A DNA stretch of 64,000 nucleotides from Rhodanobacteraceae bacterium (lineage in GTDB: Bacteria; Pseudomonadota; Gammaproteobacteria; Xanthomonadales; SZUA-5), in the NCBI GenBank assembly GCA_016713135.1, contig JADJPR010000006.1, forward strand, positions 82,169-146,168, in the 5' to 3' direction. A program made the translations under genes and the position numbers. Numbering within the stretch: position 1 is the stretch's first letter; each line of letters opens with the position of its first letter. A model generated the notes under the pieces. It saw nothing but the letters and a program-made list of their open reading frames with translations. It made no database searches and was not told the origin of the DNA. Positions 6,601-31,547 of the stretch are shown here, one piece after another.

Positions 6601-9600
6601 CCCCAGACGATGCTGTTCTGCAGGATCAGATCGACGCCGGAAGTGGCATCCCCGGCGATGCCGCCGGTCCGAGCGCTGCCGGTCGCGTAGTTCCCGGTAA
6701 CCGTGCTGTTGATGATCCGCGCGTCGTTGGCCGTGATGGAACTCAGATACATCGCTCCACCGCCATTGCTGGTGGTGTTGGTCGCGACATTGCCGGACAG
6801 CACGCTGTTGGCGATGACGATCGGACCATTCTGTGCGGACAGGGCGCCACCGCGCCCGGCACTGTTGCCATGGACGGTGCTGTTGACCAGGTTCAGCGCA
6901 CCACTGGCGAAGATCGCGCCGCCGCTGCTCGCCGTGCTGCCCACGGCGCCGCTGAGCGTGCTGCGGACAATGGTGAGCGTGCTGCCGGTATCGGAGCTGA
7001 TCAGGCCGCCGGTATCGGCATAGGCCGTGCCGCCGCCATTGGTCAGGCTCATGTCGCGCAGCGTCAGGTTGCCGGTGCCGTTGACGTTGAGCAGGCGGAA
7101 TTGATTGCTGCCGCTGCGGGTGATCGTCCCGTTGCGCAGCGTGATCGGGCTGCGAATGCTGACCAGACCCGTCAGGCCGCCGGCATCCACTGCCGACTGG
7201 GTCAGCGTGACGGTCTGGCCGTTCAGGTCGATCAGATCCGCAGTCGCTGCGGTGGAGTTGGCGCAGTCGATCGCCGCGTTGAGGGTCGCGGGCGTGTTGT
7301 CCGGCAGGGTGTACGGGAAAGAGATCGACCCGCAGGCGTCGATTTCCACCGCGCCCACATCACAGGCCGGTCCGACCTGGCGCGGCTCGCCGCGCTGATC
7401 CACCGTCAGGTTCAGATTGGCCGGTCCGCACAGGTTGGTGCTGTCGGCATTCACCACATTGCTGTGCGGGGCCGGCAGATGCGTCTGGGTCGGGCCGCCG
7501 TTTGCGGCCAGCGTCGTGTCGATGAATTGCGGAGTGGCCACGCGTCCCGGGCAGAAAGTGTCGGCCGCGTAATTGCTGGTGCCGGTGAAGGTGGACCCGG
7601 ACGCGGTGCATTCCCGCGCAGTGCCGCCGCCGGTGCGCACATTGTTGGCGATCACCGACGCCCGCAGGTTGACCGTCGAACTGCCGGTCGCGTGAACGAT
7701 GCCGACCGTGGACGCACTGGTCCCGTTGTCATGGCCCGAGAAGGTGGTGAAGGCGATGTTGGCCTGCGCCGCAGCGAACACACCGATGGCATCGGGGGAG
7801 GCGCTATTGCCGGAACTGTTGCCACTGAAGGTGCTGTTGCGGACGTTGATCACCGCACCCGTGCCGGTGATGAAGATCGCACCTGGCCCGCCGCTGCCCA
7901 CATTGCTGGCCAGCGTGCTGCCGGCGAGGGTCACGGTTGCGCTGACGCCCGGCGAGAAATACAGCGCGCTGCCGCCCAGAGAAGTGTTGCCGCTGAGCGT
8001 GGAGTCGACAATGGAGACCGTCGCGCCACTCTGCAGCGCCGGAATTGCGATGGCACCACCGCCCTGGGTGCTGCGGTGACCGGACATCGTCACGCCGGTC
8101 AGGAACAACGAGCCTTGCGAGGACAAACCGCCGCCCAGGCTGGCGTAGGTCGTACCACCACCATTGCTCAGGGTCAGATCCGTGAGCCTCAGGGTCGCCG
8201 CCGTGGACGCGCTGAGCAGACGGAACTCGCTGGCACCGCTGCGGGTGATCGTGCCGTTGCGCAGCGTGAGGTCGGTGGTGACCTGCGGCAGGCCGGTGGC
8301 ACCGGTGTAGTCCGCGAAGGAACTGGTGAGGGTGACGGTCTGGCCGTTGAGGTTGATGATGTCGGCCGTGCCATTGGCGTTCGCGCATTCGATGGCCTGA
8401 GTCAACGTCGCCGGCAGATTGTCCGGCAGCGTGTACGGGAAGCTGATCGCGGCGCAGGGGTCCGCGTCGTCGTTCTGGATCGTGCCGGTGGCGCTGATCG
8501 GCGATCCCACCGTGTAGCCGCTTCCCGAAGCGACGCTCAGGATCACGGTTTCATCCGGTTCGACAGTGGTGTCCCCGGTGGGATCGATGGTGATCGTCGC
8601 GGTGCTCGAATTGGACGGGATGACCAGCGTCGCGATTCCACCACCGGTGTAGTCGCCGCCGCTGGTCGCGGTGCCGGCCGTGCCGATATTGACGGTGGTG
8701 GCGGTTGGCAGGCTGGGACTGCGGGTGACGGTGTAGGTCAGGTTGCCGGCGCCGTTCTCCAGCACGCTGGCCGGGGTGACTGCGATGCTCACCGTGGGCA
8801 GGGTCGAATTGGTCTGCTTCTCGAAGGCGCCGACATCGACGATCGGCGCGGTGCCGCTGCCCGTGTCGGTGACGCCGGTGTCGTTGTAGCGGCGCGGATT
8901 GCCATCCCGATCCAGGGTGGTGCCGCCCGGAATCAGGGCATTGTTGCCGGCGTCGACTGCACTGCTGAGATTGCCGAGCCGATAGTCCCCGAGCGCGTTG
9001 GGTGCGGCGGCAGCGCTCTGCGGATTGACAAACGACGGATTCACGCCAACCAGGCTGGACTGGTTGGTGGTGGTACCGCCGATGTCGTTGGTCGCGGGGA
9101 ATACCGTGGACTGGTTGCCGAACAGCAGCGTGTTGGAGAGCACTGCCGGCGAGTCACTGTTCTCGTTGCGCAGGCCGCCGCCCTGGTCATTGGTAAGGTT
9201 GCTGGCGATGGTGCTGTTGTTCAGCGTCAGGATCCCGGCATTGTTGTTGTAGATGCCGCCACCCTGCACCCCCCGATTGCCGGAGATCAGCACGTTGGTG
9301 ATGACCACGGTGCCGCCGGTGTTGGCGAGTGCACCGCCCACGCCACCGCCGGCCGTGTTGGTGGAATTGCCGTTCAGCGTGGACCGGATCAGGCTGATGG
9401 TGCCGAAATCGTTGTAGATGGCACCGCCATCGAGTTCAGAAAAATTGCTGCTGATCACGCTGTCGGTGATGTTCAGCGTGCCGCTGTTGAAGACCGCACC
9501 GCCACCGCCGGCCCCGCCCGGCCCAAAGCCATAACCATTGCTGAGGGTCAGCTGCACCAGGTTCAGCGTGCCGGCCGGCGCCACGTTCACCAGGCGGAAC

Positions 9601-11807
9601 TGGCTGCCACCGGTGGGTCGGGTCAAGGTGCCGCCGGTCAGGGTCATGCTGCTGGTGACCTGGGGCAGCGCCGTGGCGCCCGCGTAGTCGCCATGGGCGT
9701 CGGTGAACGAGAGCGTCTGGCCATTGAGGTTGATGCTGTCGGCACCTGCACCGTTCGAATTGGCGCATTGCATGGCCTGGCGCAGGTTGGCCACCCGCGC
9801 GGCATTGTTGGCACCGGTCAGCGTGTAGGGAAATACATAGGCGGCGCAGGGATCCACGAAGGTCAGCACCACGTCGTTGCCGTCGCCGCCGTTGTAGCTG
9901 ATGGTCAGACTGACGCCGTTGAACAGCACAGTGCCGCCGTTCGGCAGGCCGGCAAAGGTGCCGGTGATCGCGTCGCTGGCGTCGTTGTCGATCAGCACGA
10001 AGCTCTGCCCGCTGCCGGGCACGAAGGCGCCGGACAGCGCCAACGTGGCGCCGCCCAGATTGACCGTGCCGGTGACGTCGAGCTGGTCGTATTGCGTGGC
10101 GACGGTCGCGCCGGTGATCTCGGCGGCGAAGGTGGCGCCGGCCGTCAGCGCCATGTTGACCGTGTTGAGGCGCCCGGGCGCGCCCTGGCCCGGCGCCAGG
10201 GTGCCGCCGCTCGCCACGCTGGTGGCGCCGCCGAGCGTGCCGGTGCCGGCCAGAGTGGCGCCACTGGCCACGCTGATCGCGCCGGTGCCCACGGAACTGC
10301 CGTTGACTTGCAGCTGGCCGGCCGCAACGGTGGTCGGGCCGACATAGGTGCTGGTGCTGTTCAGCACCAGGGTGCCCGGACCCGATTTGGTCAGGCCGCC
10401 GCTGACCAGCGGATCGCTGCCGCCGCTCAGGGTCTGGCTGGATGCCACGGTCACGGTCTGGCCGGTGGACACCGTCCAGGTCAGGTTGCCGGCCAGGAAG
10501 GCTGCGGTGCCGAGGCCCAAGCCACTGCCGGCGCTGGGACCCGCGCTGCCGGCCAGGACGGAGCCGCCGCTCATACCGCCGCCGACGACAGTGAGGGTCG
10601 CGCCCTGGCGCACGAACACAGCGCCGCCGAGCCCGGCCCCACCGCCACCGCCCTGGTAGTTGGCGGCGCCGCTGCCGCCGCCGAAGCCGGCTGCGCCACC
10701 GTTCTGCCCTGCACCACCGCCACCTGCGAAGCCGCCGGCACCGCCGGAACCCGCCCCGGCCCCACCGCCACCGCCGCCATAGCCGCCGATGCCACCCACC
10801 TGGGTGTTATTGCCGCCACCCGCGCCGCCACCACCGCCGAAAGCACCGTTGCCGCCTTTCCCGGCGCCGCCAGGAGGGCCAACAACGGTGGCGGTTTCGC
10901 CGCCCGGGCCGCCGCCACCGCCATTCTGATTGGCGCCCGAGCCACCACCGCCGCCGCCGTTTGCGCCGCCAGCACCAACGCCAGTACCCGCCCCCGCGCC
11001 GCCGGCGGTTGCGCCGGCCAACAGGCCAGAACTACCGGCGCCGCCAGACCCGACACCGCCATTGGCGCCCAGGCCCAGGCCACCGCCACCGCCGGCATTG
11101 TAGCTGCCGCCATTGCCACCGTTGCCGCCCATACCGCCACCGCCACCGGAGCCCCCCTCGGCCACGGCCGCGCTGACGTTGCCGCCGTTTCCGCCGGTCG
11201 CGCGGTTGGTCAGCAACTGCACGTTGCTCAGCGTCGCATTGCCTTCGTTGACGAAGACCGCCCCGCCGAGGCCGGCCCCGCCGCCGCCAGCGCTCCACCC
11301 GCCGTTGATGCTGCTCCCGTTGCCGCCGGCACCGCCGCGCGCATTGCCGTCCTGCAGCGTGAGATTGGAAATGCTCCAGGTCGCGCCGGGGGTGGCGGTC
11401 AGTCCGCTGCCGTCGCTGCCACGCACGCCGAGGAAGAAAATGCGATCCCCCGTGGTGGCGGAGGACGAACCGCCATCGATCACGATGGCACCCTGGCCGC
11501 CGTTGGCGCCGTTGATGCTGATCCCGTTCGGATTGCGCAGCACCGGCAACGCGCCGGCCAGGTTGATGGTGCCGCCGCCGGCAATGTTGAAGGTGATCGT
11601 TGCGGCACTGCCCGATGCATTTGCAGTGTTCAACGCCGCGCGCAGGCTGCCGGCCGGTGGCGACGCCACGTTGTCCGCCAGACTGGTTACCACCTGCGCC
11701 GCCAGCGGCATGCCCAGGGACAGCAGAGCCAGCCCGATGACCAGCCGGCGCAGCCTCACGACCCACAACATCATGCGACCGGAGTGCGACGGCGAGAGAT
11801 TGTTCAT
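249..11807 (-). CDS. Giant secreted adhesin-like protein with signal peptide, Gly-rich tract, autotransporter-type beta-strand repeats, 4 CSLREA-like beta-helix modules, 4 DUF11-like units and >=10 Calx-beta domains. As sequenced it stops prematurely at 249.
   Basis: This is track ORF 249..12116. I moved the start to ATG 11807 (alternative 11774) because the first 103 codons overlap the 3' end of the kinase gene, and MNNLSPSHSGRMMLWVVRLRRLVIGLALLSLGMPLAAQ looks like a signal peptide. Modules visible by eye: a GGxGG-rich tract; TKSGPGTLVLNSTSTYVGPTTV-type repeats; four modules opening C..FPYTL....LRQAIQCAN; QLTLTKTAS.. and ADLSI.KTDG.. DUF11-like units; and many Calx-beta-like units (..DD...EG.E.F..). 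Confidence 0.85.
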   Translation of the reverse strand: MNNLSPSHSGRMMLWVVRLRRLVIGLALLSLGMPLAAQVVTSLADNVASPPAGSLRAALNTANASGSAATITFNIAGGGTINLAGALPVLRNPNGISINGANGGQGAIVIDGGSSSATTGDRIFFLGVRGSDGSGLTATPGATWSISNLTLQDGNARGGAGGNGSSINGGWSAGGGGAGLGGAVFVNEGNATLSNVQLLTNRATGGNGGNVSAAVAEGGSGGGGGMGGNGGNGGSYNAGGGGGLGLGANGGVGSGGAGSSGLLAGATAGGAGAGTGVGAGGANGGGGGGSGANQNGGGGGPGGETATVVGPPGGAGKGGNGAFGGGGGAGGGNNTQVGGIGGYGGGGGGAGAGSGGAGGFAGGGGAGQNGGAAGFGGGSGAANYQGGGGGAGLGGAVFVRQGATLTVVGGGMSGGSVLAGSAGPSAGSGLGLGTAAFLAGNLTWTVSTGQTVTVASSQTLSGGSDPLVSGGLTKSGPGTLVLNSTSTYVGPTTVAAGQLQVNGSSVGTGAISVASGATLAGTGTLGGATSVASGGTLAPGQGAPGRLNTVNMALTAGATFAAEITGATVATQYDQLDVTGTVNLGGATLALSGAFVPGSGQSFVLIDNDASDAITGTFAGLPNGGTVLFNGVSLTISYNGGDGNDVVLTFVDPCAAYVFPYTLTGANNAARVANLRQAMQCANSNGAGADSINLNGQTLSFTDAHGDYAGATALPQVTSSMTLTGGTLTRPTGGSQFRLVNVAPAGTLNLVQLTLSNGYGFGPGGAGGGGAVFNSGTLNITDSVISSNFSELDGGAIYNDFGTISLIRSTLNGNSTNTAGGGVGGALANTGGTVVITNVLISGNRGVQGGGIYNNNAGILTLNNSTIASNLTNDQGGGLRNENSDSPAVLSNTLLFGNQSTVFPATNDIGGTTTNQSSLVGVNPSFVNPQSAAAAPNALGDYRLGNLSSAVDAGNNALIPGGTTLDRDGNPRRYNDTGVTDTGSGTAPIVDVGAFEKQTNSTLPTVSIAVTPASVLENGAGNLTYTVTRSPSLPTATTVNIGTAGTATSGGDYTGGGIATLVIPSNSSTATITIDPTGDTTVEPDETVILSVASGSGYTVGSPISATGTIQNDDADPCAAISFPYTLPDNLPATLTQAIECANANGTADIINLNGQTVTLTSSFADYTGATGLPQVTTDLTLRNGTITRSGASEFRLLSASTAATLRLTDLTLSNGGGTTYASLGGGLSSQGSLFLTGVTMSGHRSTQGGGAIAIPALQSGATVSIVDSTLSGNTSLGGSALYFSPGVSATVTLAGSTLASNVGSGGPGAIFITGTGAVINVRNSTFSGNSSGNSASPDAIGVFAAAQANIAFTTFSGHDNGTSASTVGIVHATGSSTVNLRASVIANNVRTGGGTARECTASGSTFTGTSNYAADTFCPGRVATPQFIDTTLAANGGPTQTHLPAPHSNVVNADSTNLCGPANLNLTVDQRGEPRQVGPACDVGAVEIDACGSISFPYTLPDNTPATLNAAIDCANSTAATADLIDLNGQTVTLTQSAVDAGGLTGLVSIRSPITLRNGTITRSGSNQFRLLNVNGTGNLTLRDMSLTNGGGTAYADTGGLISSDTGSTLTIVRSTLSGAVGSTASSGGAIFASGALNLVNSTVHGNSAGRGGALSAQNGPIVIANSVLSGNVATNTTSNGGGAMYLSSITANDARIINSTVTGNYATGSARTGGIAGDATSGVDLILQNSIVWGNGNAGTAAAQIVNAAASSTNTVSNSIVAGGLFGALDSDPLFTTPLTASATPSTAGNFALQNTSPAIDAGANANVPADGFDVNGNSNSTEDAPDRAGNPRRYDDTGVTDTGSGTAPIVDLGAFEKQTNSTLSQLTLTKTASAASFVVGTPVSFTLQLSNTGTAATTAASMITDPIPAGLVIGTLPAGCTAAGQTVTCTVPAGLAASGSTSFVIPVTPSVATAASITNTATVSGGGDSTCPAAARCSGSVTVAVNRPQLTLTKTASGPSFTVGTPANFTLQLSNTGTAATTAASTITDTIPAGLTIGTLPAGCAAAGQTVTCTVPAGLAASGSAGFVIPVTPGVATAASITNTATVSGGGDSTCPAAARCSSSVTVAVSGTCTGFTFPYTLAGANNAARVASLRQAIQCANLNGTADSIDLNAQTVTLSDAFADYAGATGLPQVTTEITLENGSVTRDSGAPQFRFLAVSSTGSLVLDGVNLSGGGLGNLSNAGAIYNDGGILTLRASTLSGNGAGFGGAIYNLGSVMAINSQFTGNSASQNSGFLMNDNATATIIGSTISGNSSSGVAGNGAIYNANGALDIIDSAVSGNTSTSVGAVQNFGGTTRIANSVFTGNSAASGIGAVSNNSAGQMTISNSALTGNRAGTSPGALFNNVGSTLTISNSTIAGNHATSGGAILNNGGTLTIGNSILWGNSGSSVLTGATITHTIVEGGFAGTGNLSVDPLFVAPVASASAPTTSGDYRLQDSSPATDAGNNAQVPVDTFDLNDNASTTDEAPDLAGNPRRYNDAGVPDTGLGTAPIVDMGAYERQTDTPFQADLSIAKTDGRTTDVPGTSITYTITASNAGPLAVPSATVADTFPANITGVSWTCVGAGGGSCPASGSGNLNATVNLPVGGSVSFTATGTISAAAAGTLSNTATVSSAVSDPVPGNNSATDSTTLTPQADLSITKTDGQTAAIPGSGISYTIVASNAGPSSVASATVADTFPASITGVNWTCVGAGGATCPASGSGNLNATVGLPAGGSVSFTATGTINVAATGTLSNTATVTSAVTDPTPGNNSATDTTTLSTLPQLSISDVSLSEGNSGTTQFDFIVSLSSPALAGGVSFDIATANGTATAGSDYQARSLTGQSIPAGSSDYTFSVQVNGDVVAEANETFVVNVSNVVGAGVLDGQGQGTIQNDDIAGITVNPTAGLVTTEAGGTATFTVVLNSQPTADVSIGLSSSDATEGSVAPTSLVFTSGNWNVARTVTVTGIDDLIADGTVAYTIVTAAATSADSSYNGLNATDVGVSNSDNDIVGITVSPTAGLVTTEAGGTATFTVVLNSEPTADVTIGLSSSDATEGSVAPTSLVFTAVNWNVARTVTVTGVDDLIVDGTVAYTVVTAAATSADSSYNGVNATDVGVSNSDDDTAGVILAESDGSTAVTEGGATDTYTLVLRSQPTADVTVAINPNAQLTMAPSVTFTPANWNVPRTVTVTATNDTVVEGTHSAGVSHSVTSADASYNGLSVAAVTATISDNDTAEIILASSGFSVVEGAVFSPGATLKVTANGAPGGTIAAQVVATMNLTLGTAGAADVAVSGSFVFPAGSSHDTVANSAEASVTDDRLVEATETFTLSLEIQSGLATTSASNSYSILSDDSAAITFVASTSSVGESAGTTGVPVVLAISGTGTGPAALGVDIAVSVQQTAESATTPTDYQLTTTSLSFLGGTADGDTRNIDVTVVNDGLIEGNHTFQLGFGALTTTATNASASGLHRVTLVDDDVAGVVITESAGETVVTEGGPGDSFTLELTAQPASTVTITFDVGTQVNFAPNPLVITPAQWNVPQTVTVTAVDDGASEGPHSATVGLIFTGDADFAAITPNLIGVQVAIIDRADVTVTQSGGTTAVTEGGATDTYTVVLTSQPTSDVAVILGAGAQLSLSPPNLVFTSANWNVARTVTVTATDDAVVEGPQSVAITHSTSSSDPNYSGITVAGIDVDITDNDSAVVSFALAALSQLEGSTPMAFSVTLSNPVASGVTLTLNSANGTATAADYTPISGATVSFPASSTTAQTVNVAIASDALDEDDETYTLTLSGLTATGDVTLGTAVAPAPSSTMTPRRRCRSPARASLKAMPAPAR
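2373..3050 (-). repeat. Intragenic tandem duplication, 2 x 339 bp (two near-identical Calx-beta units)
   Basis: The protein units GITVNPTAGLVTTEAGGTATFTVVLNSQPTADVSIGLSSSDATEG... and GITVSPTAGLVTTEAGGTATFTVVLNSEPTADVTIGLSSSDATEG... are 113 aa each and lie back to back. Confidence 0.8.
3390..4150 (-). repeat. Intragenic tandem duplication, 2 x ~381 bp (DUF11-like units)
   Basis: The units ADLSIAKTDGRTTDVPGTSITYTITASNAGP... and ADLSITKTDGQTAAIPGSGISYTIVASNAGP... are 127 aa each. Confidence 0.75.
5464..6207 (-). repeat. Intragenic tandem duplication, 2 x 372 bp (DUF11-like units)
   Basis: The units QLTLTKTASAASFVVGTPVSFTLQLSNTGTAATTAAS... and QLTLTKTASGPSFTVGTPANFTLQLSNTGTAATTAAS... are 124 aa each. 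Confidence 0.8.
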
Positions 11808-24801: not shown

Positions 24802-25232
24802 TCAGTTGAACGGGAACGCGGCGGGCAGGGTTGGGTCGGTACACGTGGCGCTGGTGATGTTGTTCAGCACTCCCACCGATGACGAAATGCCAAGCGTGTT
24901 GTTGGCATTCAGGTAGTTCTGCGCGTTCACATCGCCGGTACCGCTCATGCCCTCCAGCCGCAAGATGGTGGAGCTGATGTAGTAGAGGTCGATGGCGGGC
25001 AATCCGCTGCTGCCGGCTGCCACCTGGTTGTTGCGGATGTCGAAACAGGCGCGGTTGAAATTGGCAGATCCGGAATCGAAAGTCAGGTCGACCGTGCGCC
25101 AGAAGGCCTTGGTGGGCGAAATCGGGAACTGGCTGTTGGTCAGGGTGATCTGGGCGTTCGCATCGCTGCCGCTGATCGCGCCATTGCCGGAGAAGTAGAA
25201 CGATGAGCCCGCGGTGCCGCGGGCGTCCGCAC
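24802..25232 (-). pseudogene. C-terminal segment of the beta-helix protein, in a different frame
   Basis: The frame is open from about 25235. It reads ADARGTAGSSFYFSGNGAISGSDANAQITLTNSQFPISPTKAFWRTVDLTFDSGSANFNRACFDIRNNQVAAGSSGLPAIDLYY...PFN*, which is a natural continuation of ..TNYDLILSFNN from the upstream frame. Confidence 0.6.
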
Positions 25233-26405
25233 ATTGTTGAACGAGAGGATCAGGTCGTAGTTGGTGGTGCCGGAACCGCCGGTGTTGGCACCGTCCGAGA
25301 AGATGCCGACGGCATCGCCTTCGTGCGCGTTGTAGATATAGAGGTCGCTGACCACGCCGTTGGTGGTGGTGAAATCACCGCCTTCGATCTCGACGATTCC
25401 GAGGGCGAACTCGCCGGTGTAGTTGCGGATGTCGTTCGAGAACAGCCGGAAATTCAGGGTGCTGTTGCCCTGGGCATTGCGCAGGCTGATCGCGACCTCG
25501 CCATTGTTGGTATTCGAAGGGCCAGCGTAGGGTTCCGCGGTAAAGGCACTGGAGACGACAGCGAGGTCCATGCGTGCCCCGCTGTTGCCTTCCGGATTGG
25601 CGGTCAGGGCGATGCCGTCGATATCCTCGAAAACCGCATTCTGGATGAAGGCATTGATCCGCGCGGTGCCGTCCGCGCGCAACAGGATGCCGTTACCATT
25701 GCAGTTGCCGCCACCGCAGGCCGTCGTCGTGATGTTGTTGCGCAGGGTCATGTTGGTCCAACGGAAATCCAGGTTTCCGCTGAAGTTCTCCAGGTACAAA
25801 CCGTTGTCGGTGAAGTTCTGGATGATGCTGTTGTTGATATCGAGGGTGCCACTGACCTGAGCGCCGGAGACGGCGCCCTCACGGAAATTGAAAACGTGCT
25901 CGTTGTCGGCGTTGCCAATATTGTTGAAATCGACGTTCGAGAAGATGTTGTTGGTGCCGGTGATCCCGGTGCCGGTCACGCCATGCCCGCCGGTCCCGTT
26001 GACGATGACGTCGGTCGCCCGGAAATCCTGGATGTTGGTCAGGTCGAAGGCGTTGTCGACAATATTGGTGAAGGTGCCGCCGAGTCCGTCGCTGTGCACA
26101 TTGACGAAATTGAGATCGCCCATGATCGTGAAATCGCCGGTGTTGTTGCTCAAGCGCACACCGTCCAGGGCCCCATTGATGTCGAGTTCCTGGATGTTCG
26201 CGGAAATGCTCGAGTTGGCGATCTCGACACCGGCAGTCGTCTTGGCGCCCAGGTTGACCAGAGTCTCGACCAGCAACAGGCCGCTGGTCCGGTTGAGATT
26301 GATGCCGTGAGTACCCGCGCCAGTGCTGGTGATCGTGGCGAATGTCAGGACCACTTCATGCAGGGTGGCGTGATTGACGACCAACGCTGTCGCATTGCCC
26401 GTCAC
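25140..26405 (-). CDS. Right-handed beta-helix repeat protein, middle segment. The last ~29 codons look out of frame.
   Basis: Repetitive N/G/T-rich beta-helix-like sequence is present (NNSIIQNFTDNGLYLENFSGNLDFRWTNMTLRNN..). The tail RTPAAPRAHRSTSPAMARSAAAMRTPRSP is Arg/Pro/Ala junk. The GTG start overlaps the upstream stop by 4 nt. Confidence 0.65.
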   Translation of the reverse strand: MTGNATALVVNHATLHEVVLTFATITSTGAGTHGINLNRTSGLLLVETLVNLGAKTTAGVEIANSSISANIQELDINGALDGVRLSNNTGDFTIMGDLNFVNVHSDGLGGTFTNIVDNAFDLTNIQDFRATDVIVNGTGGHGVTGTGITGTNNIFSNVDFNNIGNADNEHVFNFREGAVSGAQVSGTLDINNSIIQNFTDNGLYLENFSGNLDFRWTNMTLRNNITTTACGGGNCNGNGILLRADGTARINAFIQNAVFEDIDGIALTANPEGNSGARMDLAVVSSAFTAEPYAGPSNTNNGEVAISLRNAQGNSTLNFRLFSNDIRNYTGEFALGIVEIEGGDFTTTNGVVSDLYIYNAHEGDAVGIFSDGANTGGSGTTNYDLILSFNNVRTPAAPRAHRSTSPAMARSAAAMRTPRSP

Positions 26406-28471
26406 ATCCAGAAGACAGTGGTCACGCGGCCCGGGCTGGCATTGGCGTAATTGATGTTCAGAGCGGTCGCGGCATTGGTGTAGATCGCGACATTGCCCAG
26501 GTTGACCCTGCCGGTGTTGCCGCCAAGCGCGACGGGCGTGGTGGCGAAGCGGGCGCCGGCAGTGCCGAGGTTGAGATTTGTGAAGGTGACATTGCGGGCA
26601 TTGTTGTTGATGACGACCCCACCCGATGCGTTGCTGCCAGTCACCGCCAGACCGACGATGTTGACTGCAGGGCCGGCATTCGCCTTGTTGATGGTTCCGC
26701 CGTAGGTGAAGTTGAGCGCATTGGTACCGGCGCCGTTGACCAGGTTCACCACGGCATTGCTGGCACCGGCGGTGCTGTTGAGCGTGCCGGCGGCCGCGGT
26801 CACGGTGCCGGCGCAGCCATCGAAGGACACGCCATTGCTGCCGCCGGCCGCCGTCAGCGTGGCCAGCGCCAGATTCGCGGTGCCGCCGGTGCAGACCACC
26901 GCGGGGCCCGCGCTGGTGGTGATCGCACTGGTGTTGTTGCTGACGGTCAGGGCTGCGTTGGTCAGTGAGATGCCGACGGTGCCGCCGGTCGAGGTCAGCG
27001 TGGCCAGTTGCAGCAGGAAGTCGCTGGCGGAGGCGCTGTTGACGCGGATGGCCTCGGTGGTCGGACTGCTGATGGTCGTGGTGCCGGTGACGATGACGTC
27101 GTTGTTGCCCACCGGGCTGTCCACGCTGATGCCGCGCGCGTTGCTGCTGGTCGATGACAGTGTGGTGAAGGTGGCATTCGCCACGAGATTCACGTTTTCC
27201 AGGTACAACGCCGGGCCGTCGGTGGACGTCAGCACGCTGTTGGTGCCGTCGATGCGCAGACGACCACCGTCAGAGCTGAAGGCCTGGGTGTCGGTGCTGG
27301 TCGCATCGGCGAGCACACCTTCGGCGAAGATCACTCGCGATGTCGCATTGTTGCCCTGAAGCCGGATCAGCGGTTCACTCGCGGCGCCGCCGTTCAGATC
27401 GACACCTGCCAGGGTCACGGTTCCGGCGGCGCCCTGCGTGGTGATGGCCAGTCCGCGGGTGTTGCTGCTGCTGAGATCGCTGGCGCTGTCGAAGGTGATC
27501 GTGCCACTGTTGTCCGAGACATTCAGCACGTAGCCGCCGGTGAAGGCGGACACAGTGGTTCCGAACAGACTGACTGCGGCCGCGTTGTTGAGGAAGGACA
27601 GGGCTGATCCGGTCGCCTGGGTAGCGCCAGTGATGGCGACGCCCTGGATCGTGATCACGCCCGCGCTGTTGATGAACTCGATCGCACCGCTGGCTCCGGC
27701 GGCAGAAGCAATGCCAATGCCCTCCAGCGTGAAGCCGCCGGCCCCGTTGCCGGAAATGGCCTTGCCGCCGGAATTGGCGATATTGAACTCGCGGACACGG
27801 CCGCCAGCGCCGAACAACTCGATCAAGGGGAAGCTGTTGCCGGACGAAATCAGCGGCCGGGTGCCTGGCGGAACATCGTTGGCGGTGCCGACCAGATCGA
27901 GGCCCGCCGCCTCGCCAAACAGCTTCTGCCCGGGTTCCAGGTCGAAGGTCACATCGTAGGTGCCGGCAAACACGAAAATGGTGTCGCCGTTGGCGTCCAT
28001 ATCGCCGACGCCGGAAGCGCCGTTGAGCGGGGCGAAGCTGTTGAACGGCGCCGAGCGCGTTCCGTTGCCGCCCGCCGGTGCGCTGTCGTCGACGAACCAG
28101 ACGGTTTCGCCACTCACGTCGATGCTGACCAGAGCAGTGCTCGCGCCGGTGGCGTCGCGCACGGTGTACTGGAAGCTGTCGACGCCGCGGAAGCCCGGCA
28201 CCGGCTGGTAGCTGAAGCTGCCGTCGGCGGCGACGATCACGCGCCCGCCAAACTGGCTGAACTCGTCGCTGGACTCGAGCCGGTGAGTCGTTGCATTGAA
28301 GCCGGTGTCGTTGGCCAGCAGGCCGGAACCGACGGGCACGCTCAACGAGGCATTGACGTTGACACTGTAGCTGTCATTGGCAACCGTGGGCGCCGCGCCG
28401 GCGGTGGACGCGGCAGCGCACGCAAGCGCCGCAGCCAACCAGTGAGAGGACCTGAAGACCGGTGCGGGCAT
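26402..28471 (-). CDS. Secreted beta-helix / cadherin-like-domain protein, N-terminal segment
   Basis: ATG 28471 has GGGAG about 8 nt upstream, and MPAPVFRSSHWLAAALACAAASTAGAAP looks like a signal peptide. It is followed by TVANDSYSVNVNASLSVPVGSGLLANDTG (cadherin/VCBS-like) and then a long T/G/A/N-rich beta-helix-like sequence. Confidence 0.75.
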   Translation of the reverse strand: MPAPVFRSSHWLAAALACAAASTAGAAPTVANDSYSVNVNASLSVPVGSGLLANDTGFNATTHRLESSDEFSQFGGRVIVAADGSFSYQPVPGFRGVDSFQYTVRDATGASTALVSIDVSGETVWFVDDSAPAGGNGTRSAPFNSFAPLNGASGVGDMDANGDTIFVFAGTYDVTFDLEPGQKLFGEAAGLDLVGTANDVPPGTRPLISSGNSFPLIELFGAGGRVREFNIANSGGKAISGNGAGGFTLEGIGIASAAGASGAIEFINSAGVITIQGVAITGATQATGSALSFLNNAAAVSLFGTTVSAFTGGYVLNVSDNSGTITFDSASDLSSSNTRGLAITTQGAAGTVTLAGVDLNGGAASEPLIRLQGNNATSRVIFAEGVLADATSTDTQAFSSDGGRLRIDGTNSVLTSTDGPALYLENVNLVANATFTTLSSTSSNARGISVDSPVGNNDVIVTGTTTISSPTTEAIRVNSASASDFLLQLATLTSTGGTVGISLTNAALTVSNNTSAITTSAGPAVVCTGGTANLALATLTAAGGSNGVSFDGCAGTVTAAAGTLNSTAGASNAVVNLVNGAGTNALNFTYGGTINKANAGPAVNIVGLAVTGSNASGGVVINNNARNVTFTNLNLGTAGARFATTPVALGGNTGRVNLGNVAIYTNAATALNINYANASPGRVTTVFWM

Positions 28472-28615
28472 ACGCGAACTCCCAGTGCCGCGGGCGTGGC
28501 GATACACGTCCACGCGGCGCAATCAGTTGTCGATTTCACGGTTCGGGCCCCGGCCCTACCGCTCGTCGGACAATACGCCGAATACGTGTCAATGGGAGTA
28601 CGCACTCTTGCGAAT

Positions 28616-29112
28616 TCAGCGCAGCCAGGGCGCGTCAGGCTCGCGGTTGTTCCAGCCCAGTTGCGCGGCGGCCGCGCCCAGCACCTTCGACTCGATGCAC
28701 CCATCCTGGTGCAATGCGCGCAGCGCCGCGAACGCGATCGCGGACGCATCCACCTCGAAGAAATCGCGCAGTCCGGCACGGGTGTCGCTGCGGCCAAAGC
28801 CGTCGGTGCCGAGCGTGACGTAGCGCCGCGGCACCGCGGCGCGGATCAGTTCCGGCAATGCGCGCAGATAGTCGCTGGCGGCGATCACCGGCCCGGAGGT
28901 TGCCGCGAGCTGGCGCGAGACATAGGCCACCGGCGCCGGCTCGTCCCAGCGCACGCGCGCCAGACGCTCGCAGTCGATCGCATCGCGGTGCAGTTCGGTC
29001 CCGCTGGTCACGCTCCACACCTGGGCGTCGACGCCGAGCTCCGCGAGGAGGTCCGCGGCTTTCAGGGCCTGCGGAAGGATGGCGCCGGAGGCGAGGAGCT
29101 GAACCTGGGGAC
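28616..29112 (-). CDS. aceE: Pyruvate dehydrogenase E1 component, C-terminal ~165 aa, in a different frame from the N-terminal part
   Basis: The segment PQVQLLASGAILPQALKAADLLAELGVDAQVWSVTSGTELHRD...YVTLGTDGFGRSDTRAGLRDFFEVDA.. matches the AceE C-terminus (VQLLGSGSIL...RVLGTDGFGRSDSRENLRHHFEVDA). This frame is open from 29215 down to the stop at 28616. Confidence 0.85.
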
Positions 29113-29340
29113 GGCGGGATTCGGGAATGGGGAACGGGGAATCGGTGGCGGAACGCGCACGACGCCCCTTCAGCTTCCCAGGCCTTCGCCTATTCCCGGA
29201 TGCGTTGTTGCGGGCCTAACTGCGCAGGAAGCCGCTTGCGCCGCGAAGCCGTCCGCAACACTCGTAGCTCCCGATCGGTCAGACCCGCAAGAAGGTGGGC
29301 CGCCGCGCCACCAATTCCCCATTCCCGAGTCCCGAGCCCC
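29113..29340. mobile_element. ~228-bp MITE/REP-like element with ~35-bp terminal inverted repeats built from CGGGA(A/T/C)T heptamers, inserted in aceE
   Basis: The left end is ggcgggattcgggaatggggaacggggaatcggtggcgg. The reverse complement of the right end is gggctcgggactcgggaatggggaattggtggcgcggcgg. The element lies exactly where AceE homology is interrupted. Confidence 0.7.
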
Positions 29341-31547
29341 GGGCTCACGCAGTACATCCCCCTCAGCACGCCCTCCCGCACGCCCGCCGGCATCGACGGC
29401 TGCGGGTAGTTCTCGTTGCCAACGGTCAGGTAATAGAAGACGTCGTTCTGCTCGCCGAGCATCTCCTCGATGCCGCGCTGCACGATCAGGGCCACCTCGT
29501 AGGCGAAGGCCGGGTCGTAGGCGCGGCAGTTCGGCACGCCGGCGAAGCCGAGATGGCTGGCGCCGTCCTGGTGCTGCAGGCCCTCGCCGCCGAGGGTGGT
29601 GCGGCCGCTGGTGGCGCCGAGCAGGAAACCACGCGCACGCTGGTCGGCCGCGGCCCAGATCAGATCGCCGACGCGCTGCCAGCCGAACATCGAGTAATAG
29701 ATGTAGCAGGGCAGCATCGGCAGGTCGTGGGTCGAATAACTCGTCGCCGCAGCGATCCACGAGCTGATCGCACCGGCTTCGCTGATGCCCTCCTCCAGGA
29801 TCTGGCCGCTTTTCTCCTCGCGGTAGTAGAGCATCGAGCCGAGGTCCTCGGGCTCGTACTGCTGGCCGTGCGGCGCGTAGATGCCGACCTGGCGGAACAG
29901 GCTGGCCATACCGAAGGTGCGCGCCTCGTCGGCGACGATTGGCACCACGCGCGGGCCGAGCGCTGCGTCCTTCAGCAGGTTGCCGAGCATGCGCACCACC
30001 GCCATCGTGGTCGACATCTCCTTGGCCTCGGCCTCCAGCGCAAACTTCGCGAAGGACTCCACCGCGGGCACCGGCAGCTTCTCGCTGCTGCGCGCCCGGC
30101 GGCGCGGAAGCTGGCCGCCGAGTGCCGCGCGGCGCGCGTGCAGGTAGCGCATTTCCGGGCTGTCCTCGGCCGGCTTGTAGAAGCGCAACTGCTCGACCTC
30201 GGCATCCGCCAGCGGCAGCCCGAAGCGGTCGCGGAAGGCACGCAGCTCGTCGATGTCGAGCTTCTTCTGCTGGTGGGTGGTCATGCGGCCCTGGCCGGCC
30301 TTGCCCATGCCGAAGCCCTTCATGGTCTTGGCCAGCACTACGGTCGGTTGGCCCTTGTGCGCCAGTGCGTGGGCATAGGCCGCGTGCAGCTTGCGCGCAT
30401 CGTGGCCGCCGCGTTTCAGACGATCGATGTCGCCGTCCGACAGGCCCTCGACCAGCCCCGCGAGCTCCGCGTTCTGGCCGAAAAAGCGCTCGCGGTTGTA
30501 GGCGCCGTCGTTGGCGGAGAAGGTCTGGAACTGGCCGTCGACGGTGTGCGCGAAGGCGCGCAGCAGCTCGCCGCCGGTGTCGCGCGCGAACAGCGCGTCC
30601 CAATCGGAGCCCCACAGCACCTTGATCACGTTCCAGCCAGCGCCGGTGAACAGCGCCTCCAGCTCATCGATCACCCGGCTGTTGCCGCGCACCGGACCGT
30701 CGAGGCGCTGCAGATTGCAGTTGATGACGAAGGTCAGGTTGTCCAGCCGCTCACGCGCGGCGAGCGAGAGCGCGCCGATCGATTCGGGCTCGTCCATCTC
30801 GCCATCGCCGAAGAAGCCCCAGACGCGCCGGCCGTGGGTGGTCGCAAGACCCCGATGTTCGAGATAGCGCAGGAAGCGCGCCTGGTAGATCGCGCTGATC
30901 GGACCCAGGCCCATCGAGCCGGTCGGGAACTGCCAGAAATCCGGCATCAGCCAGGGATGCGGGTAGGAACACAGGCCGGGCGCGCCGATCTCGCGACGGT
31001 ACCGCGCGAGCCGTTCCTCCGGCAGGAAGCCTTCGAGGTACGCACGCGCGTAAACACCAGGTGAGGAGTGCGGCTGGAAGTACACCAGGTCCGCGCCGTC
31101 CGGGTGGCCGGCGGCCTTGAAGAAATGGTGGAAGCCCACCTCGAACAAATCGGCCGCTGACGCATAGCTGGCAATATGCCCGCCTAGTTCGCCGGCCTCG
31201 GTATTGGCGCGCACCACCATCGCCAGCGCGTTCCAGCGCATCGCCGCGCCCAAGCGAGCTTCCAGTTCCAGATCGCCGGGGTAGGGCGGCTGCGCCGTGT
31301 GCGCAATGGTATTGCAGTAGGGCGTGATGCGCGCGCGGGCCGACTGCACGCCGCGCGTGAGGGCGTGGTCGGCCAGTCGATCGTAGAGGTACTGCGCGCG
31401 CTCCTTGCCGTCAATGTGGACGACCGCGTCGAGGGCCTCCAGCCATTCGCGCGTTTCCTCGGGATCGGCGTCCGCGACGGTCGGCGTCACCGCCAGCACA
31501 CGTTCGGCGGCACGGGGAAAATCGCGGTCGTTTTCGGGGAGGGACAT
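29190..31547 (-). CDS. aceE: Pyruvate dehydrogenase E1 component, N-terminal ~5/6. It reads into an inserted element and stops inside it.
   Basis: From ATG 31547 (MSLPENDRDF..) the sequence is collinear by eye with E. coli AceE. Shared motifs include PYPGDLELE, HISPGVYARA-like SSPGVYARAYLEG, GDGEMDEPES, NCNLQRLDGPV and FGFQR-like FGWQRVGD. Similarity ends at ..EGVLRGMYCVS (~29341). The remaining 50 codons are element-derived. Confidence 0.9.
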   Translation of the reverse strand: MSLPENDRDFPRAAERVLAVTPTVADADPEETREWLEALDAVVHIDGKERAQYLYDRLADHALTRGVQSARARITPYCNTIAHTAQPPYPGDLELEARLGAAMRWNALAMVVRANTEAGELGGHIASYASAADLFEVGFHHFFKAAGHPDGADLVYFQPHSSPGVYARAYLEGFLPEERLARYRREIGAPGLCSYPHPWLMPDFWQFPTGSMGLGPISAIYQARFLRYLEHRGLATTHGRRVWGFFGDGEMDEPESIGALSLAARERLDNLTFVINCNLQRLDGPVRGNSRVIDELEALFTGAGWNVIKVLWGSDWDALFARDTGGELLRAFAHTVDGQFQTFSANDGAYNRERFFGQNAELAGLVEGLSDGDIDRLKRGGHDARKLHAAYAHALAHKGQPTVVLAKTMKGFGMGKAGQGRMTTHQQKKLDIDELRAFRDRFGLPLADAEVEQLRFYKPAEDSPEMRYLHARRAALGGQLPRRRARSSEKLPVPAVESFAKFALEAEAKEMSTTMAVVRMLGNLLKDAALGPRVVPIVADEARTFGMASLFRQVGIYAPHGQQYEPEDLGSMLYYREEKSGQILEEGISEAGAISSWIAAATSYSTHDLPMLPCYIYYSMFGWQRVGDLIWAAADQRARGFLLGATSGRTTLGGEGLQHQDGASHLGFAGVPNCRAYDPAFAYEVALIVQRGIEEMLGEQNDVFYYLTVGNENYPQPSMPAGVREGVLRGMYCVSPGLGTREWGIGGAAAHLLAGLTDRELRVLRTASRRKRLPAQLGPQQRIRE

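What the first reader, a model, noticed from the sequence alone, without database searches (positions are those of the whole stretch)
29100..29345. Inverted-repeat element (~228 bp) inserted inside the coding sequence of aceE
AceE homology stops at ..GMYCVS (~29341) and resumes at ..PQVQLLASG (~29110). That is where E. coli has only ~11 residues. The intervening DNA has ~35-bp terminal inverted repeats built from CGGGA(A/T/C)T heptamers.

The two halves are in frames offset by 1. Even so, the upstream frame stays open to 29190 and the downstream frame is open from 29215. A single 1-nt change within 29193-29215 would therefore give a continuous E1 protein with a ~76-aa insertion in a linker region, analogous to in-frame Rickettsia palindromic elements. 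Otherwise the E1 gene of the pyruvate dehydrogenase complex is disrupted, which would be remarkable for an aerobe unless a second copy exists.
Basis: partly seen in the sequence, partly recalled or inferred. Interest (0 to 1): 0.66.

Follow-up and report, generated by a model that had tools for sequence, protein, structure and literature searches.

The report
Sigma-factor domain cassette inside aceE
The pyruvate dehydrogenase E1 gene here is most likely not broken: the frame break looks like an assembly error, and the inverted-repeat insert is an in-frame cassette that adds a copy of the sigma-70 region-4 DNA-binding domain to a surface loop of the enzyme, between two known Xanthomonas-type GGGNNTC heptamer repeat arrays.

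Summary
The inverted repeat and the frame offset are real in the window. Arms of 36 nt lie at 29115-29150 and 29306-29341. The aceE halves are offset by 1 nt, with a TAG at 29192-29190.

The frame break is very probably an assembly artefact. Contigs from 8 public runs in 7 studies carry the same locus with 26 extra nucleotides, spread over 19 sites in 29179-29253. With them the gene reads straight through. No public run holds the window's own version.

The insert is not a classical MITE.
- Its arms are four-unit GGGNNTC heptamer arrays, the quadruplex-forming repeat class of Xanthomonas (Rehm et al. 2015). They are translated as flexible linkers, GLGTRDS and ESRVPSP.
- Its core encodes a sigma-70 region-4 domain that passes the Pfam threshold and aligns to E. 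coli RpoD 539-600.
- Related Lysobacterales AceE proteins carry the same domain in the same loop, with dN/dS of 0.1-0.3.
- Near-identical strains carry a plain 69-72-nt linker instead, sometimes in the same sample.
- No target-site duplication and no other copy of the core were found.

A sigma-4 domain inside a PDH E1 was not found in the literature searched. Its function is unknown.

The parts
29352..31547 (-). aceE 5' part: ATG at 31547 through ..LRGMY. It covers the N-terminal, thiamine-diphosphate and middle domains of the homodimeric PDH E1.
   Evidence: ORF and translation. 97% identical to P0001 and 81-91% to other Lysobacterales AceE proteins, with Pfam PDH_E1_N, Transketolase_N and PDH_E1_M. 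Aligns to E. coli E1 up to residue 717.
29099..29351 (-). The whole variable cassette: 253 nt in the window and 279 nt in the intact allele. Near-identical strains have an unrelated 69-72-nt Gly/Lys/Glu linker in its place.
   Evidence: Contigs of X7, X8, X12, X14 and X17 join 29098/29101 to 29352 with 69-72 other letters. The first 30 of these equal the P0001-type linker of L001.
29306..29341 (-). Upstream arm, G-rich on the mRNA strand: four heptamers GGGGCTC GGGACTC GGGAATG GGGAATT (29313-29340) plus GGTGGCG. Translated as PGLGTREWGIGG.
   Evidence: the repeat finder pair I1, heptamer scan, pairing 25/28. The same class of arm is present in L002-L005, L126 and L128.
29165..29305 (-). Core encoding a sigma-70 region-4 (helix-turn-helix) domain. 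It is corrupted in the window.
   Evidence: The reconstructed peptide AAAHLLAGLTDRELRVLRERGIDFADATLETVAAQFEATQQRIREIEAKALGKLKG hits Pfam Sigma70_r4 at 41 bits (cut-off 24.1). It also hits E. coli RpoD region 4 structures 1TLH, 2P7V and 3T72.
29179..29253 (-). Stretch where the window lacks 26 nt at 19 scattered sites. This produces the frame offset and the TAG at 29192-29190.
   Evidence: read laying insertions are identical in X1, X2, X3, X6 (partly), X11, X12 (partly), X13 and X16 (partly). Alignment. No public run holds the window's own words.
29115..29150 (-). Downstream arm, C-rich on the mRNA strand: CGCCACC plus GATTCCC CGTTCCC CATTCCC GAATCCC (29116-29143). Translated as ATDSPFPIPESR.
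   Evidence: the repeat finder pair I1.
28616..29104 (-). aceE 3' part: VQLLASG.. to the stop codon (E1 C-terminal domain).
   Evidence: Translation. Aligns to E. coli E1 residues 720-857. Pfam Transketolase_C_1 in relatives.

Best explanation
In nature this locus is an intact aceE gene for the homodimeric pyruvate dehydrogenase E1. It carries an in-frame cassette of about 279 nt in the surface loop that joins the middle and C-terminal domains (E. coli residues 717-720).

**What the cassette contains**
- It has two four-unit arrays of GGGNNTC heptamers in inverted orientation. These belong to the G-quadruplex- and hairpin-forming simple-sequence repeat class that is abundant in xanthomonads.
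- Because 7 and 3 share no factor, each array is open in every frame. The arrays are translated as flexible linkers of the type GLGTRDS (G-rich arm) and ESRVPSP (C-rich arm).
- Between the arms lies a copy of region 4 of the primary sigma factor (RpoD residues about 545-600). This is a small, independently folding helix-turn-helix domain.

**What is shown and what is inferred**
- Shown: the reading frame, the domain identity, the constraint on its sequence, the two alleles, and the co-variation of the arms.
- Inferred: the enzyme tolerates the domain because it hangs off a loop on two flexible tethers.
- Inferred: selection keeps the domain foldable.
- Inferred: the two arms are kept complementary by concerted evolution, that is, gene conversion or templated repair.
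- Inferred: the arms' hairpin potential and their 28-nt homology promote loss, in-frame internal deletion and allelic replacement of the cassette. That would explain why sigma-4, arms-only, one-arm and plain-linker alleles are interleaved among close relatives.
- Inferred: sigma-4 probably entered the loop first and the arrays colonised the two linkers later. The most basal sigma-4 allele has no arms. The same arrays sit in the linkers around the E3-binding domain of an E2 protein and in loops of other enzymes.

**The frame break in the window.** The frameshift and stop codon are a consensus error of that assembly. 26 nt were dropped in a region where two alleles coexist and a long hairpin forms.
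For: **Artefact**
- Eight runs from seven studies show the same 26 extra nucleotides, with 0-3 other differences in 29060-29400.
- The reconstruction is a continuous ORF whose insert scores 41 bits on Sigma70_r4.
- The window core is an exact subsequence missing 26 of 100 nt in 19 events, without one substitution.
- None of 5 sampled words of the window core is in any indexed run, while the flanks are in at least 20 runs.
- The window has another 1-nt deletion, at 25219, relative to two runs. It breaks an ORF.
- Both alleles coexist in one sample (X12) and in one study (X1 and X17).

**Domain**
- The Pfam threshold is passed by all five insert peptides tested.
- P0003 aligns over 62 residues to E. 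coli RpoD region 4 (539-600) without a gap, matching at most positions.
- The insertion point maps between E. coli E1 residues 717 and 720.

**Constraint**
- In the module, pN is 0.14-0.46 against pS of 0.56-0.80, giving dN/dS of 0.10-0.32. The rest of AceE gives 0.06-0.15.

**Arms**
- Every lineage has four units.
- Arms pair at 25-28 of 28 positions.
- L004 differs from L005 and L126 by 5 changes, all present on both arms and still pairing, and by none on one arm only.
- The repeat class, its four-unit preference and its convergent pairs are described in PMC4692102.
- A genome scan finds such arrays in Luteimonas, Lysobacter, Xanthomonas, Rhodanobacter and Pseudoxanthomonas.

**Alleles**
- P0006 equals a P0017-like allele with its core deleted in frame.

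**Arrays in frame in other genes**
- E2 (arms flank the E3_binding domain), a BioF-like protein, CbiD, a HemW-like protein, an IcmF-like protein, PurL and HycI.
Against: - I could not see raw reads of the assembly the window comes from, so the cause of the 26 missing nucleotides is inferred. The dropped letters are not homopolymer-type errors, and they are confined to the core rather than spread over the whole cassette.
- All comparison data are Logan contigs, which drop rare variants.
- The order of events (sigma-4 first, arms later) rests on one basal sequence (P0021) and a neighbour-joining tree.
- dS in the module is near saturation and rests on about 50 codons.
- dN/dS below 1 may reflect only the need to avoid a misfolding insert, not a function.
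- The AlphaFold model was poor (mean pLDDT 54). Surface exposure therefore rests on sequence alignment to E. coli E1, not on a structure comparison.
- Searches for the cassette in other host proteins were not sensitive.
Confidence: 0.8

Rival explanations
1. Classical MITE. On this view a non-autonomous transposon with terminal inverted repeats, mobilised in trans, jumped into aceE. Its body only happens to be translatable.
For: - The 36-nt inverted termini and the size of about 250 nt fit a MITE.
- The cassette is present or absent among near-identical strains.
- Palindromic elements with the same kind of heptamer termini do occur twice, in frame, in one PurL gene (L136) and again in L151. 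Mobile units with such ends therefore exist.
Against: - There is no target-site duplication. The alternative allele is an unrelated 69-72-nt linker, not an empty site.
- The body is a sigma-70 region-4 domain under purifying selection.
- No second copy of the body was found in the window, in 120 array-bearing genome loci or in 33 metagenome loci.
- The arms differ in heptamer type between lineages while the body stays homologous.
- The arms belong to a simple-sequence repeat class that brackets unrelated, native gene segments elsewhere.
Confidence: 0.07
2. Real pseudogene. On this view the sequenced organism truly carries the 26-nt-shorter, frameshifted core, aceE is inactivated, and pyruvate oxidation depends on another enzyme.
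For: - The window sequence as given has the stop at 29192-29190, and the downstream frame has no start codon before 29020.
- Contigs cannot prove that a rare variant is absent.
Against: - Nineteen separate deletions with no substitution, while both flanks are identical to other assemblies, is not a pattern of natural decay.
- The variant was not found in any indexed run.
- The same assembly has another ORF-breaking 1-nt deletion that short-read contigs of two runs lack.
- The rest of aceE shows no other defect.
Confidence: 0.08
3. Recoding. On this view the offset is bridged in vivo by a programmed frameshift or by ribosome slippage, induced by the G-quadruplex or hairpin formed by the arms.
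For: - The G-rich arm has four G-tracts on the mRNA strand, and the arms can form a stem of about 30 bp.
- RNA G-quadruplexes have been reported to induce -1 frameshifts (references 78-79 cited in PMC4692102).
Against: - Every other assembly of the locus is in frame without recoding.
- The overlap zone 29193-29215 has no recognisable slippery site.
- The window needs a net shift of +1 or -2.
- The sigma-4 reading would still be destroyed between the 19 deletions.
Confidence: 0.02

Closest known systems
GGGNATC / GGGAATC heptameric G-rich simple-sequence repeats of Xanthomonas and Nostoc (Rehm et al. 2015, PLoS One, PMC4692102)
   Same: - The heptamer unit has conserved GGG(A) and position 6.
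- There is a strong preference for four units.
- Convergent (inverted) pairs are frequent.
- The host order is Xanthomonadales/Lysobacterales.
- Both the G-rich and the C-rich strand are found on transcripts.
   Different: - In the paper 89-93% of arrays are intergenic, and the paired arrays described there lie in close proximity.
- Here both arrays are translated inside an essential-type gene, about 190-230 nt apart, and enclose a protein domain.
- Unit variants GGGACTC and GGGACCC dominate in relatives.
Rickettsia palindromic elements (RPE) inserted in frame in protein-coding genes (Ogata et al. 2000, from my own knowledge; mentioned in PMC10969869)
   Same: - A palindromic DNA element sits in frame in a housekeeping gene.
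- It lies at a loop that can tolerate extra residues.
- The host protein presumably stays functional.
   Different: - RPEs are multicopy elements with a conserved body, and their peptide resembles no known domain.
- Here only the arms are repeated in the genome.
- The body is a recognisable sigma-factor domain found, so far, only in AceE.
Region 4 of primary sigma factors (RpoD / sigma-70; Pfam PF04545; PDB 1TLH, 2P7V, 3T72, 1KU7)
   Same: - It covers RpoD residues about 539-600, matching at most aligned positions in P0003.
- All three helices are present.
- Core residues and several DNA-contact arginines (R554, R562, R584, R586, R588) are mostly kept.
   Different: - There are no regions 1-3 and no C-terminal tail.
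- E585 is Q in most modules, Q589 is E in most and S in P0017.
- Some lineages (P0017, P0004, the window lineage) have lost one or more recognition arginines.
- The domain is embedded in an enzyme.
Flexible inter-domain linkers of 2-oxoacid dehydrogenase E2 chains
   Same: In L144 the same inverted arrays encode the two linkers that flank the small E3-binding domain. This parallels the two tethers around sigma-4 in E1.
   Different: E2 linkers are normally Ala/Pro-rich and not repeat-derived. The E2 domain between them is native, not foreign.

Membership tests
GGGNATC heptamer repeat class (Rehm et al. 2015) | Tandem heptamers (GGGANTN)n, at least 2 units, with conserved positions 1-4 and 6 | tested here: met
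   Window arms are GGGGCTC GGGACTC GGGAATG GGGAATT and rc GGGATTC GGGAATG GGGAACG GGGAATC.
GGGNATC heptamer repeat class (Rehm et al. 2015) | Preference for four units | tested here: met
   There are four units in each arm in the window, L002, L003, L004, L005 and L126.
GGGNATC heptamer repeat class (Rehm et al. 2015) | Frequent convergent pairs that can form stem-loops | tested here: met
   Arms pair at 25-28 of 28 positions in seven lineages. The paper reports 70 and 75 such pairs in Xcc and Xac.
GGGNATC heptamer repeat class (Rehm et al. 2015) | Dispersed in many copies in Xanthomonadales genomes, mostly intergenic | tested here: inconclusive
   Arrays were found in Luteimonas, Lysobacter, Xanthomonas, Rhodanobacter and Pseudoxanthomonas, mostly just upstream of genes. 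The 64-kb window holds only this pair. The full genome was not available.
GGGNATC heptamer repeat class (Rehm et al. 2015) | G-quadruplex formation by the G-rich strand | not testable with these tools
   Four G-tracts are present. Confirmation needs biophysical measurement.
MITE | Terminal inverted repeats and a size of about 50-500 bp | tested here: met
   Arms of 36 nt and an element of about 227 nt in the window, 253 nt in the intact allele.
MITE | Target-site duplication flanking the element | tested here: not met
   The junctions are TAC|TGCGTG and CCCCAG|GTTCAG. There is no direct repeat. The alternative allele replaces the segment with unrelated sequence.
MITE | Several near-identical copies of the whole element in the genome | tested here: inconclusive
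   There is none in the window or in 162 related loci. The complete source genome could not be searched.
MITE | A parent insertion sequence with matching ends | not tested
   No transposase search was made with these ends.
Sigma70_r4 domain (PF04545) | Profile match above the curated threshold | tested here: met
   Scores of 28.6-59.7 bits against a cut-off of 24.1 for five lineages.
Sigma70_r4 domain (PF04545) | Colinear alignment with region 4.1-4.2 of solved RpoD structures | tested here: met
   Aligns to E. coli RpoD 539-600, E = 1e-21 for P0003 and 8e-12 for the window lineage.
Sigma factor (functional) | Regions 2 and 3 for core binding and -10 recognition | tested here: not met
   Only region 4 is present. 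The rest of the protein is PDH E1.
Homodimeric pyruvate dehydrogenase E1 (AceE) | PDH_E1_N, Transketolase_N, PDH_E1_M and Transketolase_C_1 architecture, and full-length similarity to E. coli E1 | tested here: met
   Precomputed Pfam domains of relatives and alignment to 1L8A.
Pseudogene | The frame-disrupting lesion is reproducible in independent sequence data | tested here: not met
   Eight runs show the in-frame version and none shows the window version.
RPE-like in-frame palindromic element | In-frame palindromic insert in a housekeeping gene that leaves the host ORF intact | tested here: met
   Reconstructed ORF of 985 residues without a stop codon.
RPE-like in-frame palindromic element | The same element body is inserted in many different genes | tested here: not met
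   The sigma-4 body is seen only in AceE. Only the arms recur in other genes.

The most novel reading that the evidence does not exclude
The sigma-4 domain on PDH E1 may be functional rather than a passenger. Displayed in up to dozens of copies per PDH complex on flexible tethers, it could bind natural ligands of sigma region 4. Candidates are the RNA polymerase beta-flap, Rsd/AsiA-type anti-sigma proteins including phage ones, region-4-contacting activators, or -35-like DNA. It would then act as a metabolic-state-dependent sponge or decoy. The coexistence of sigma-4 and plain alleles in one population would reflect balancing selection.

A second part of this reading concerns the arms. Inverted four-unit heptamer arrays, 28 nt long and about the minimal length for RecA-dependent recombination, may serve as portable homology arms. 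Such arms would let a domain-sized segment be copied from one gene into a loop of another. That would be a bacterial route to domain shuffling.
Probability: 0.15. Interest if true: 0.85.

Novelty: new variant of a known kind. Interest (0 to 1): 0.6.

Why it matters
- **Annotation.** It removes a false alarm. An aerobe with a disrupted E1 gene is most likely an assembly error, and annotation pipelines would wrongly call a pseudogene here.
- **Translated repeats.** The G-quadruplex- and hairpin-forming heptamer repeats of xanthomonads, described as mainly intergenic and of unknown role, are translated as inter-domain linkers inside essential enzymes. These include AceE, E2, PurL, BioF-like, CbiD and IcmF-like proteins.
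- **A possible route to new domain architectures.** In one case the arrays enclose a foreign protein domain. That offers a concrete system for studying how repeats create new protein architectures.
- **Possible link between metabolism and transcription.** A sigma-70 region-4 domain grafted onto pyruvate dehydrogenase is an unexpected architecture. It is conserved across lineages but dimorphic within populations. If it binds any of the known partners of sigma region 4, it would link central metabolism and transcription in a new way.

Tried and rejected
1. **Protein search with the module alone.** It returned only RpoD fragments, chimeric contigs and small stand-alone region-4 proteins. It did not even list the AceE proteins the profile was built from. 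It says nothing about other hosts.
2. **Protein search with the module plus AceE flanks.** It was biased to short fragments. One further module-bearing fragment (P0241) was found, but no census was possible.
3. **AlphaFold of P0004 with a 45-sequence alignment.** Mean pLDDT was 54, too poor for fold comparison. Helices at 758-768, 778-784 and 789-804 coincide with the sigma-4 helices and the flanks are coil. Nothing more was taken from it, and no fold search was run.
4. **Metagenome scan for (GGGACTC)2 N185-215 (GAGTCCC)2.** I expected more AceE cassettes. It gave 33 loci, none of them AceE or sigma-4. That argued against a mobile sigma-4 unit and revealed in-frame arrays in other enzymes.
5. 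**Literature searches.** Searches for sigma region 4 in PDH E1, for MITEs in Xanthomonadaceae and for heptanucleotide repeats found nothing specific. The search for GGGAATC found Rehm et al.. Their supplements do not mention rpoD or aceE.
6. **Translational bypassing or splicing.** Considered and rejected. The arms are inverted, not direct, and an RNA-labelled contig (X13) is colinear with the DNA.
7. **Second aceE.** There is none in the window. The genome could not be searched.


Full report
**1. What is in the window.**

aceE lies on the minus strand. The ATG is at 31547 and the protein runs without defect to ..VLRGMY, whose Y codon ends at 29352. AceE similarity resumes at VQLLASG (about 29104) and runs to the stop at 28616.

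Between the two halves lie 253 nt with a 36-nt inverted repeat. The arms are at 29115-29150 and 29306-29341, 83% complementary. They are made of heptamers of the type GGGAATC or GGGACTC. A two-heptamer pattern occurs four times, all inside the element, against 0.15 expected by chance.

The RNA of 29100-29350 folds far better than shuffles (z = -4.8). The upstream frame stops at TAG 29192-29190. The downstream frame opens at about 29215 and is offset by one base. It has no start codon before 29020.

**2. The frame break is not seen anywhere else.**

The flanks of the element occur in at least 20 public runs, nearly all of them sludge, bioreactor, biofilm or digester metagenomes plus one soil run. 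I laid the contigs of these runs on the window.

- The same locus appeared with 0-3 substitutions in 29060-29400 but 26 extra nucleotides, at 19 scattered places between 29179 and 29253.
- This held in X1, X2, X3, X11 and X13 over the whole element, and in X6, X12 and X16 over the part their contigs cover. That makes eight runs from seven studies.
- From the listed insertions and a 30-nt loose end I rebuilt that version. It reads in frame..GMYCVSPGLGTREWGIGGAAAHLLAGLTDRELRVLRERGIDFADATLETVAAQFEATQQRIREIEAKALGKLKGRRARSATDSPFPIPESRRPQVQLLASG..
- The window core is an exact subsequence of this version. 26 of 100 nt are missing and there is no substitution.
- None of the five sampled 31-mers of the window core was found in any indexed run.
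- Over 18 kb around the gene, X1 contigs show only about five other indel letters. One is a C missing at 25219, also absent from the window relative to X17. Restoring it lengthens a broken minus-strand ORF from 286 to at least 398 codons.

The assembly behind the window therefore has indel errors, and they are concentrated in this hairpin-bounded, polymorphic core. Nineteen deletions without a substitution is not how a gene decays. I conclude, by inference, that the frameshift is a consensus artefact. I could not inspect the reads of the source assembly.

**3. What the insert encodes.**

- The rebuilt peptide and the inserts of four relatives all pass the Pfam threshold for Sigma70_r4 (28.6-59.7 bits, cut-off 24.1).
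- Against solved structures, the best matches are isolated region 4 of E. coli RpoD (1TLH, 2P7V, 3T72). For P0003 the aligned stretch corresponds to full-length RpoD residues 539-600, gap-free and matching at most positions.
- With the AceE flanks included, the same search splits the query three ways: E. coli E1 up to residue 717, RpoD region 4, and E. coli E1 from residue 720.
- The insert is thus a complete sigma-70 region 4 grafted into the short loop between the middle and C-terminal domains of E1.

**4. Relatives.**

Of the 21 best AceE hits, all from Lysobacterales or Xanthomonadales metagenome bins, nine clusters are 965-1009 aa long and carry sigma-4 in this loop: P0003, P0004, P0007-P0010, P0012, P0017 and P0021. 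Two more, P0006 and P0016, carry arms without it. Ordinary AceE is about 900 aa with a 7-12-residue loop.

- **Constraint.** Codon comparison of six lineages gives pN of 0.14-0.46 against pS of 0.56-0.80 for the module (dN/dS 0.10-0.32). The rest of the gene gives dN/dS of 0.06-0.15. The domain is constrained as protein, but more loosely than the enzyme.
- **Residues.** Hydrophobic core positions and the C-terminal helix (IE.KAL.KLK) are best kept. The -35-contacting arginines are kept in some lineages and lost in others. E585 is Q in most modules. Q589 is E in all but P0017, which has S (numbering from my own knowledge of sigma-70). What is conserved looks more like fold than like DNA specificity.

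**5. The arms.**

In every lineage the domain is flanked by two arrays of exactly four heptamers, G-rich upstream and C-rich downstream on the mRNA strand.

| Locus | Upstream arm | Downstream arm |
|---|---|---|
| L005, L126 | (GGGACTC)4 | (GAGTCCC)4 |
| L002 | GGGACCC type | matching complement |
| L004 | GGGAATC GGGAATG GGGAATC GGGAATC | perfect mirror image |
| window | mixed unit types | mixed unit types |

Sources for the table are.

- The arms pair at 25-28 of 28 positions everywhere.
- L004 shares the inner linker sequences of L126 (GS..PPSL and LK.RP.RRT). It differs from L126 by five changes, all present on both arms and still pairing, and by none on one arm only. The arms evolve in concert.
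- Because 7 and 3 are coprime, an array gives the same cyclic peptide in all frames: GTRDSGL for the G strand and ESRVPSP for the C strand. Neither contains a stop codon. This explains why such arrays can sit in genes.
- A literature search for the unit found Rehm et al. 2015 (PMC4692102). [quoted passage not shown] 89-93% are intergenic. The function is unknown.
- My genome scan agrees on taxa (Xanthomonadales, Nostocales and some others) and on the usual intergenic position just upstream of genes. One hit, L024, is another AceE with a single array in the same loop.

The arms are therefore members of a known repeat class, in its minority intragenic situation.

**6. Is the cassette a mobile unit?**

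No target-site duplication exists. No second sigma-4-like segment occurs in the window or in 129 fetched loci other than AceE loci and an ordinary sigma-factor gene in the Nostoc locus L067.

A metagenome scan for inverted (GGGACTC)2 and (GAGTCCC)2 arrays 185-215 nt apart gave 33 loci, none with AceE or sigma-4. Instead, the arms often lie in frame inside other housekeeping genes and bracket native parts of them:

- a BioF-like aminotransferase (L146)
- CbiD (L161)
- a HemW-like radical-SAM enzyme (L158, L132)
- an IcmF-like mutase (L150)
- HycI (L134, L140)
- an E2 acyltransferase in which the two arrays are the linkers on either side of the E3-binding domain (L144)

These are documented. In PurL (L136) a palindromic body with such ends occurs twice, so mobile units with these ends do exist. 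The sigma-4 body, however, has so far been seen only in AceE.

**7. Alleles.**

Contigs of X7, X8, X14 and X17, and one contig of X12, have flanks that differ from the window by 0-5 letters per piece. They replace 29099-29351 by 69-72 unrelated nucleotides. The first 30 of these are the PLAVTGGGKM.. linker of P0001.

- X12 holds both alleles, and so does study P1 (X1 against X17).
- On a neighbour-joining tree of AceE without the loop, sigma-4 alleles, arms-only alleles (P0006 and P0016), one-arm alleles (P0014, P0020) and the plain PLA..GEKEKGK allele are interleaved. P0006 is a P0017-like allele with the core deleted in frame.
- The most basal sigma-4 allele (P0021) has no arms.
- This pattern needs either repeated loss or exchange of the loop by homologous recombination. 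The data do not decide between them.

**8. How it most likely works.**

Shown:
- The gene is intact in independent assemblies of the locus from other samples.
- The insert is a sigma-4 domain on two repeat-encoded linkers.
- The domain is constrained.
- The arms co-vary.
- The locus is dimorphic.

Inferred:
- The domain is tolerated because it hangs from a surface loop.
- The arms are homogenised by gene conversion or hairpin-templated repair.
- Their hairpin and their 28-nt homology drive deletions and allele replacement.
- Sigma-4 probably came first and the arrays colonised its linkers, as they did around the E3-binding domain of E2.

The function of sigma-4 on E1 is unknown. My default is a tolerated passenger kept foldable by selection. 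A real role as a binder of sigma-4 partners is possible, and I rate it at about 15%.

**9. Novelty.**

Four things are already known: the repeat class, in-frame palindromic inserts (RPE), region 4 as an autonomous domain, and assembly frameshifts. As far as I could search, two things are new: a sigma-70 region-4 domain inside PDH E1, enclosed by translated inverted heptamer arrays and dimorphic in natural populations, and the wider finding that these arrays serve as linkers inside many enzymes (for the searches). I class it as a new variant of a known kind.

Noticed in passing
window 25219: The window lacks one C that contigs of two runs (X1, X17) have. Adding it lengthens a broken minus-strand ORF from 286 to at least 398 codons. 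The ORF is a repetitive, probably secreted protein. This is probably another assembly indel.
   Followed up: partly
window 27295-27298: A paired +1/-1 difference to the X1 contig lies inside the 706-aa ORF 26402-28522. It is either a short local frame change or a strain difference.
   Followed up: no
L004 20305-20386, 5804-5824, 21213-21233; L005 21455-21482: A second heptamer family, (GGGGCAG)n, forms intergenic arrays and an inverted pair in the same Lysobacterales contigs.
   Followed up: no
L136 7995-8217 and a second site further downstream in the same ORF (6124-10518): A PurL gene carries two in-frame copies of a palindromic element with heptamer-array ends. The copies share a similar body (..LQALSAKDTKDAKEKQ.. 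and ..LQELSAKDANDAKKNQ..). A similar body occurs in L151. This looks like a true mobile in-frame element.
   Followed up: partly
L144 824-2068: In an E2 acyltransferase the two inverted (GGGACTC)/(GAGTCCC) arrays encode the linkers on both sides of the E3-binding domain.
   Followed up: partly
L150 1629-5405: An IcmF-like B12 mutase/MeaB fusion carries at least three separate in-frame array sites. They include a short inverted pair (GIGNGESGLG ... SPESRVPSPE).
   Followed up: no
L001 1764-2446; L003 9740-10461; L004 9222-9870; L126 2212-2860; L127 9076-9908; L005 6134-6540: In the relatives aceE is monocistronic, with no aceF beside it. In five of the six loci listed, a toxin-antitoxin pair of varying type sits directly next to it: PIN with PhdYeFM, MazE or PSK_trans_fac, or TacA with an acetyltransferase. 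In L005 a MazE-type antitoxin gene with a small unassigned ORF lies about 3.5 kb upstream.
   Followed up: no
P0182, P0236, P0225, P0228 (proteins): These are small stand-alone proteins consisting of a sigma-70 region-4 domain. Two are fused to a ClpX-type zinc finger and two have acidic tails. P0225 and P0228 share the TRQRIREIE signature of the AceE module.
   Followed up: no
L129, L131, L135 (about 230 nt each): A near-perfect nested palindrome built from GGGACTCG units with an AT-rich centre recurs in three contigs of lower G+C (54-58%).
   Followed up: no
X2, X12, X16 contigs matching 29115-29147 / 29311-29335: Other contigs of similar depth in the same metagenomes carry arrays matching the window's arms. 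One pair is only 123 nt apart. Further copies of the arms probably exist in this organism's genome.
   Followed up: no
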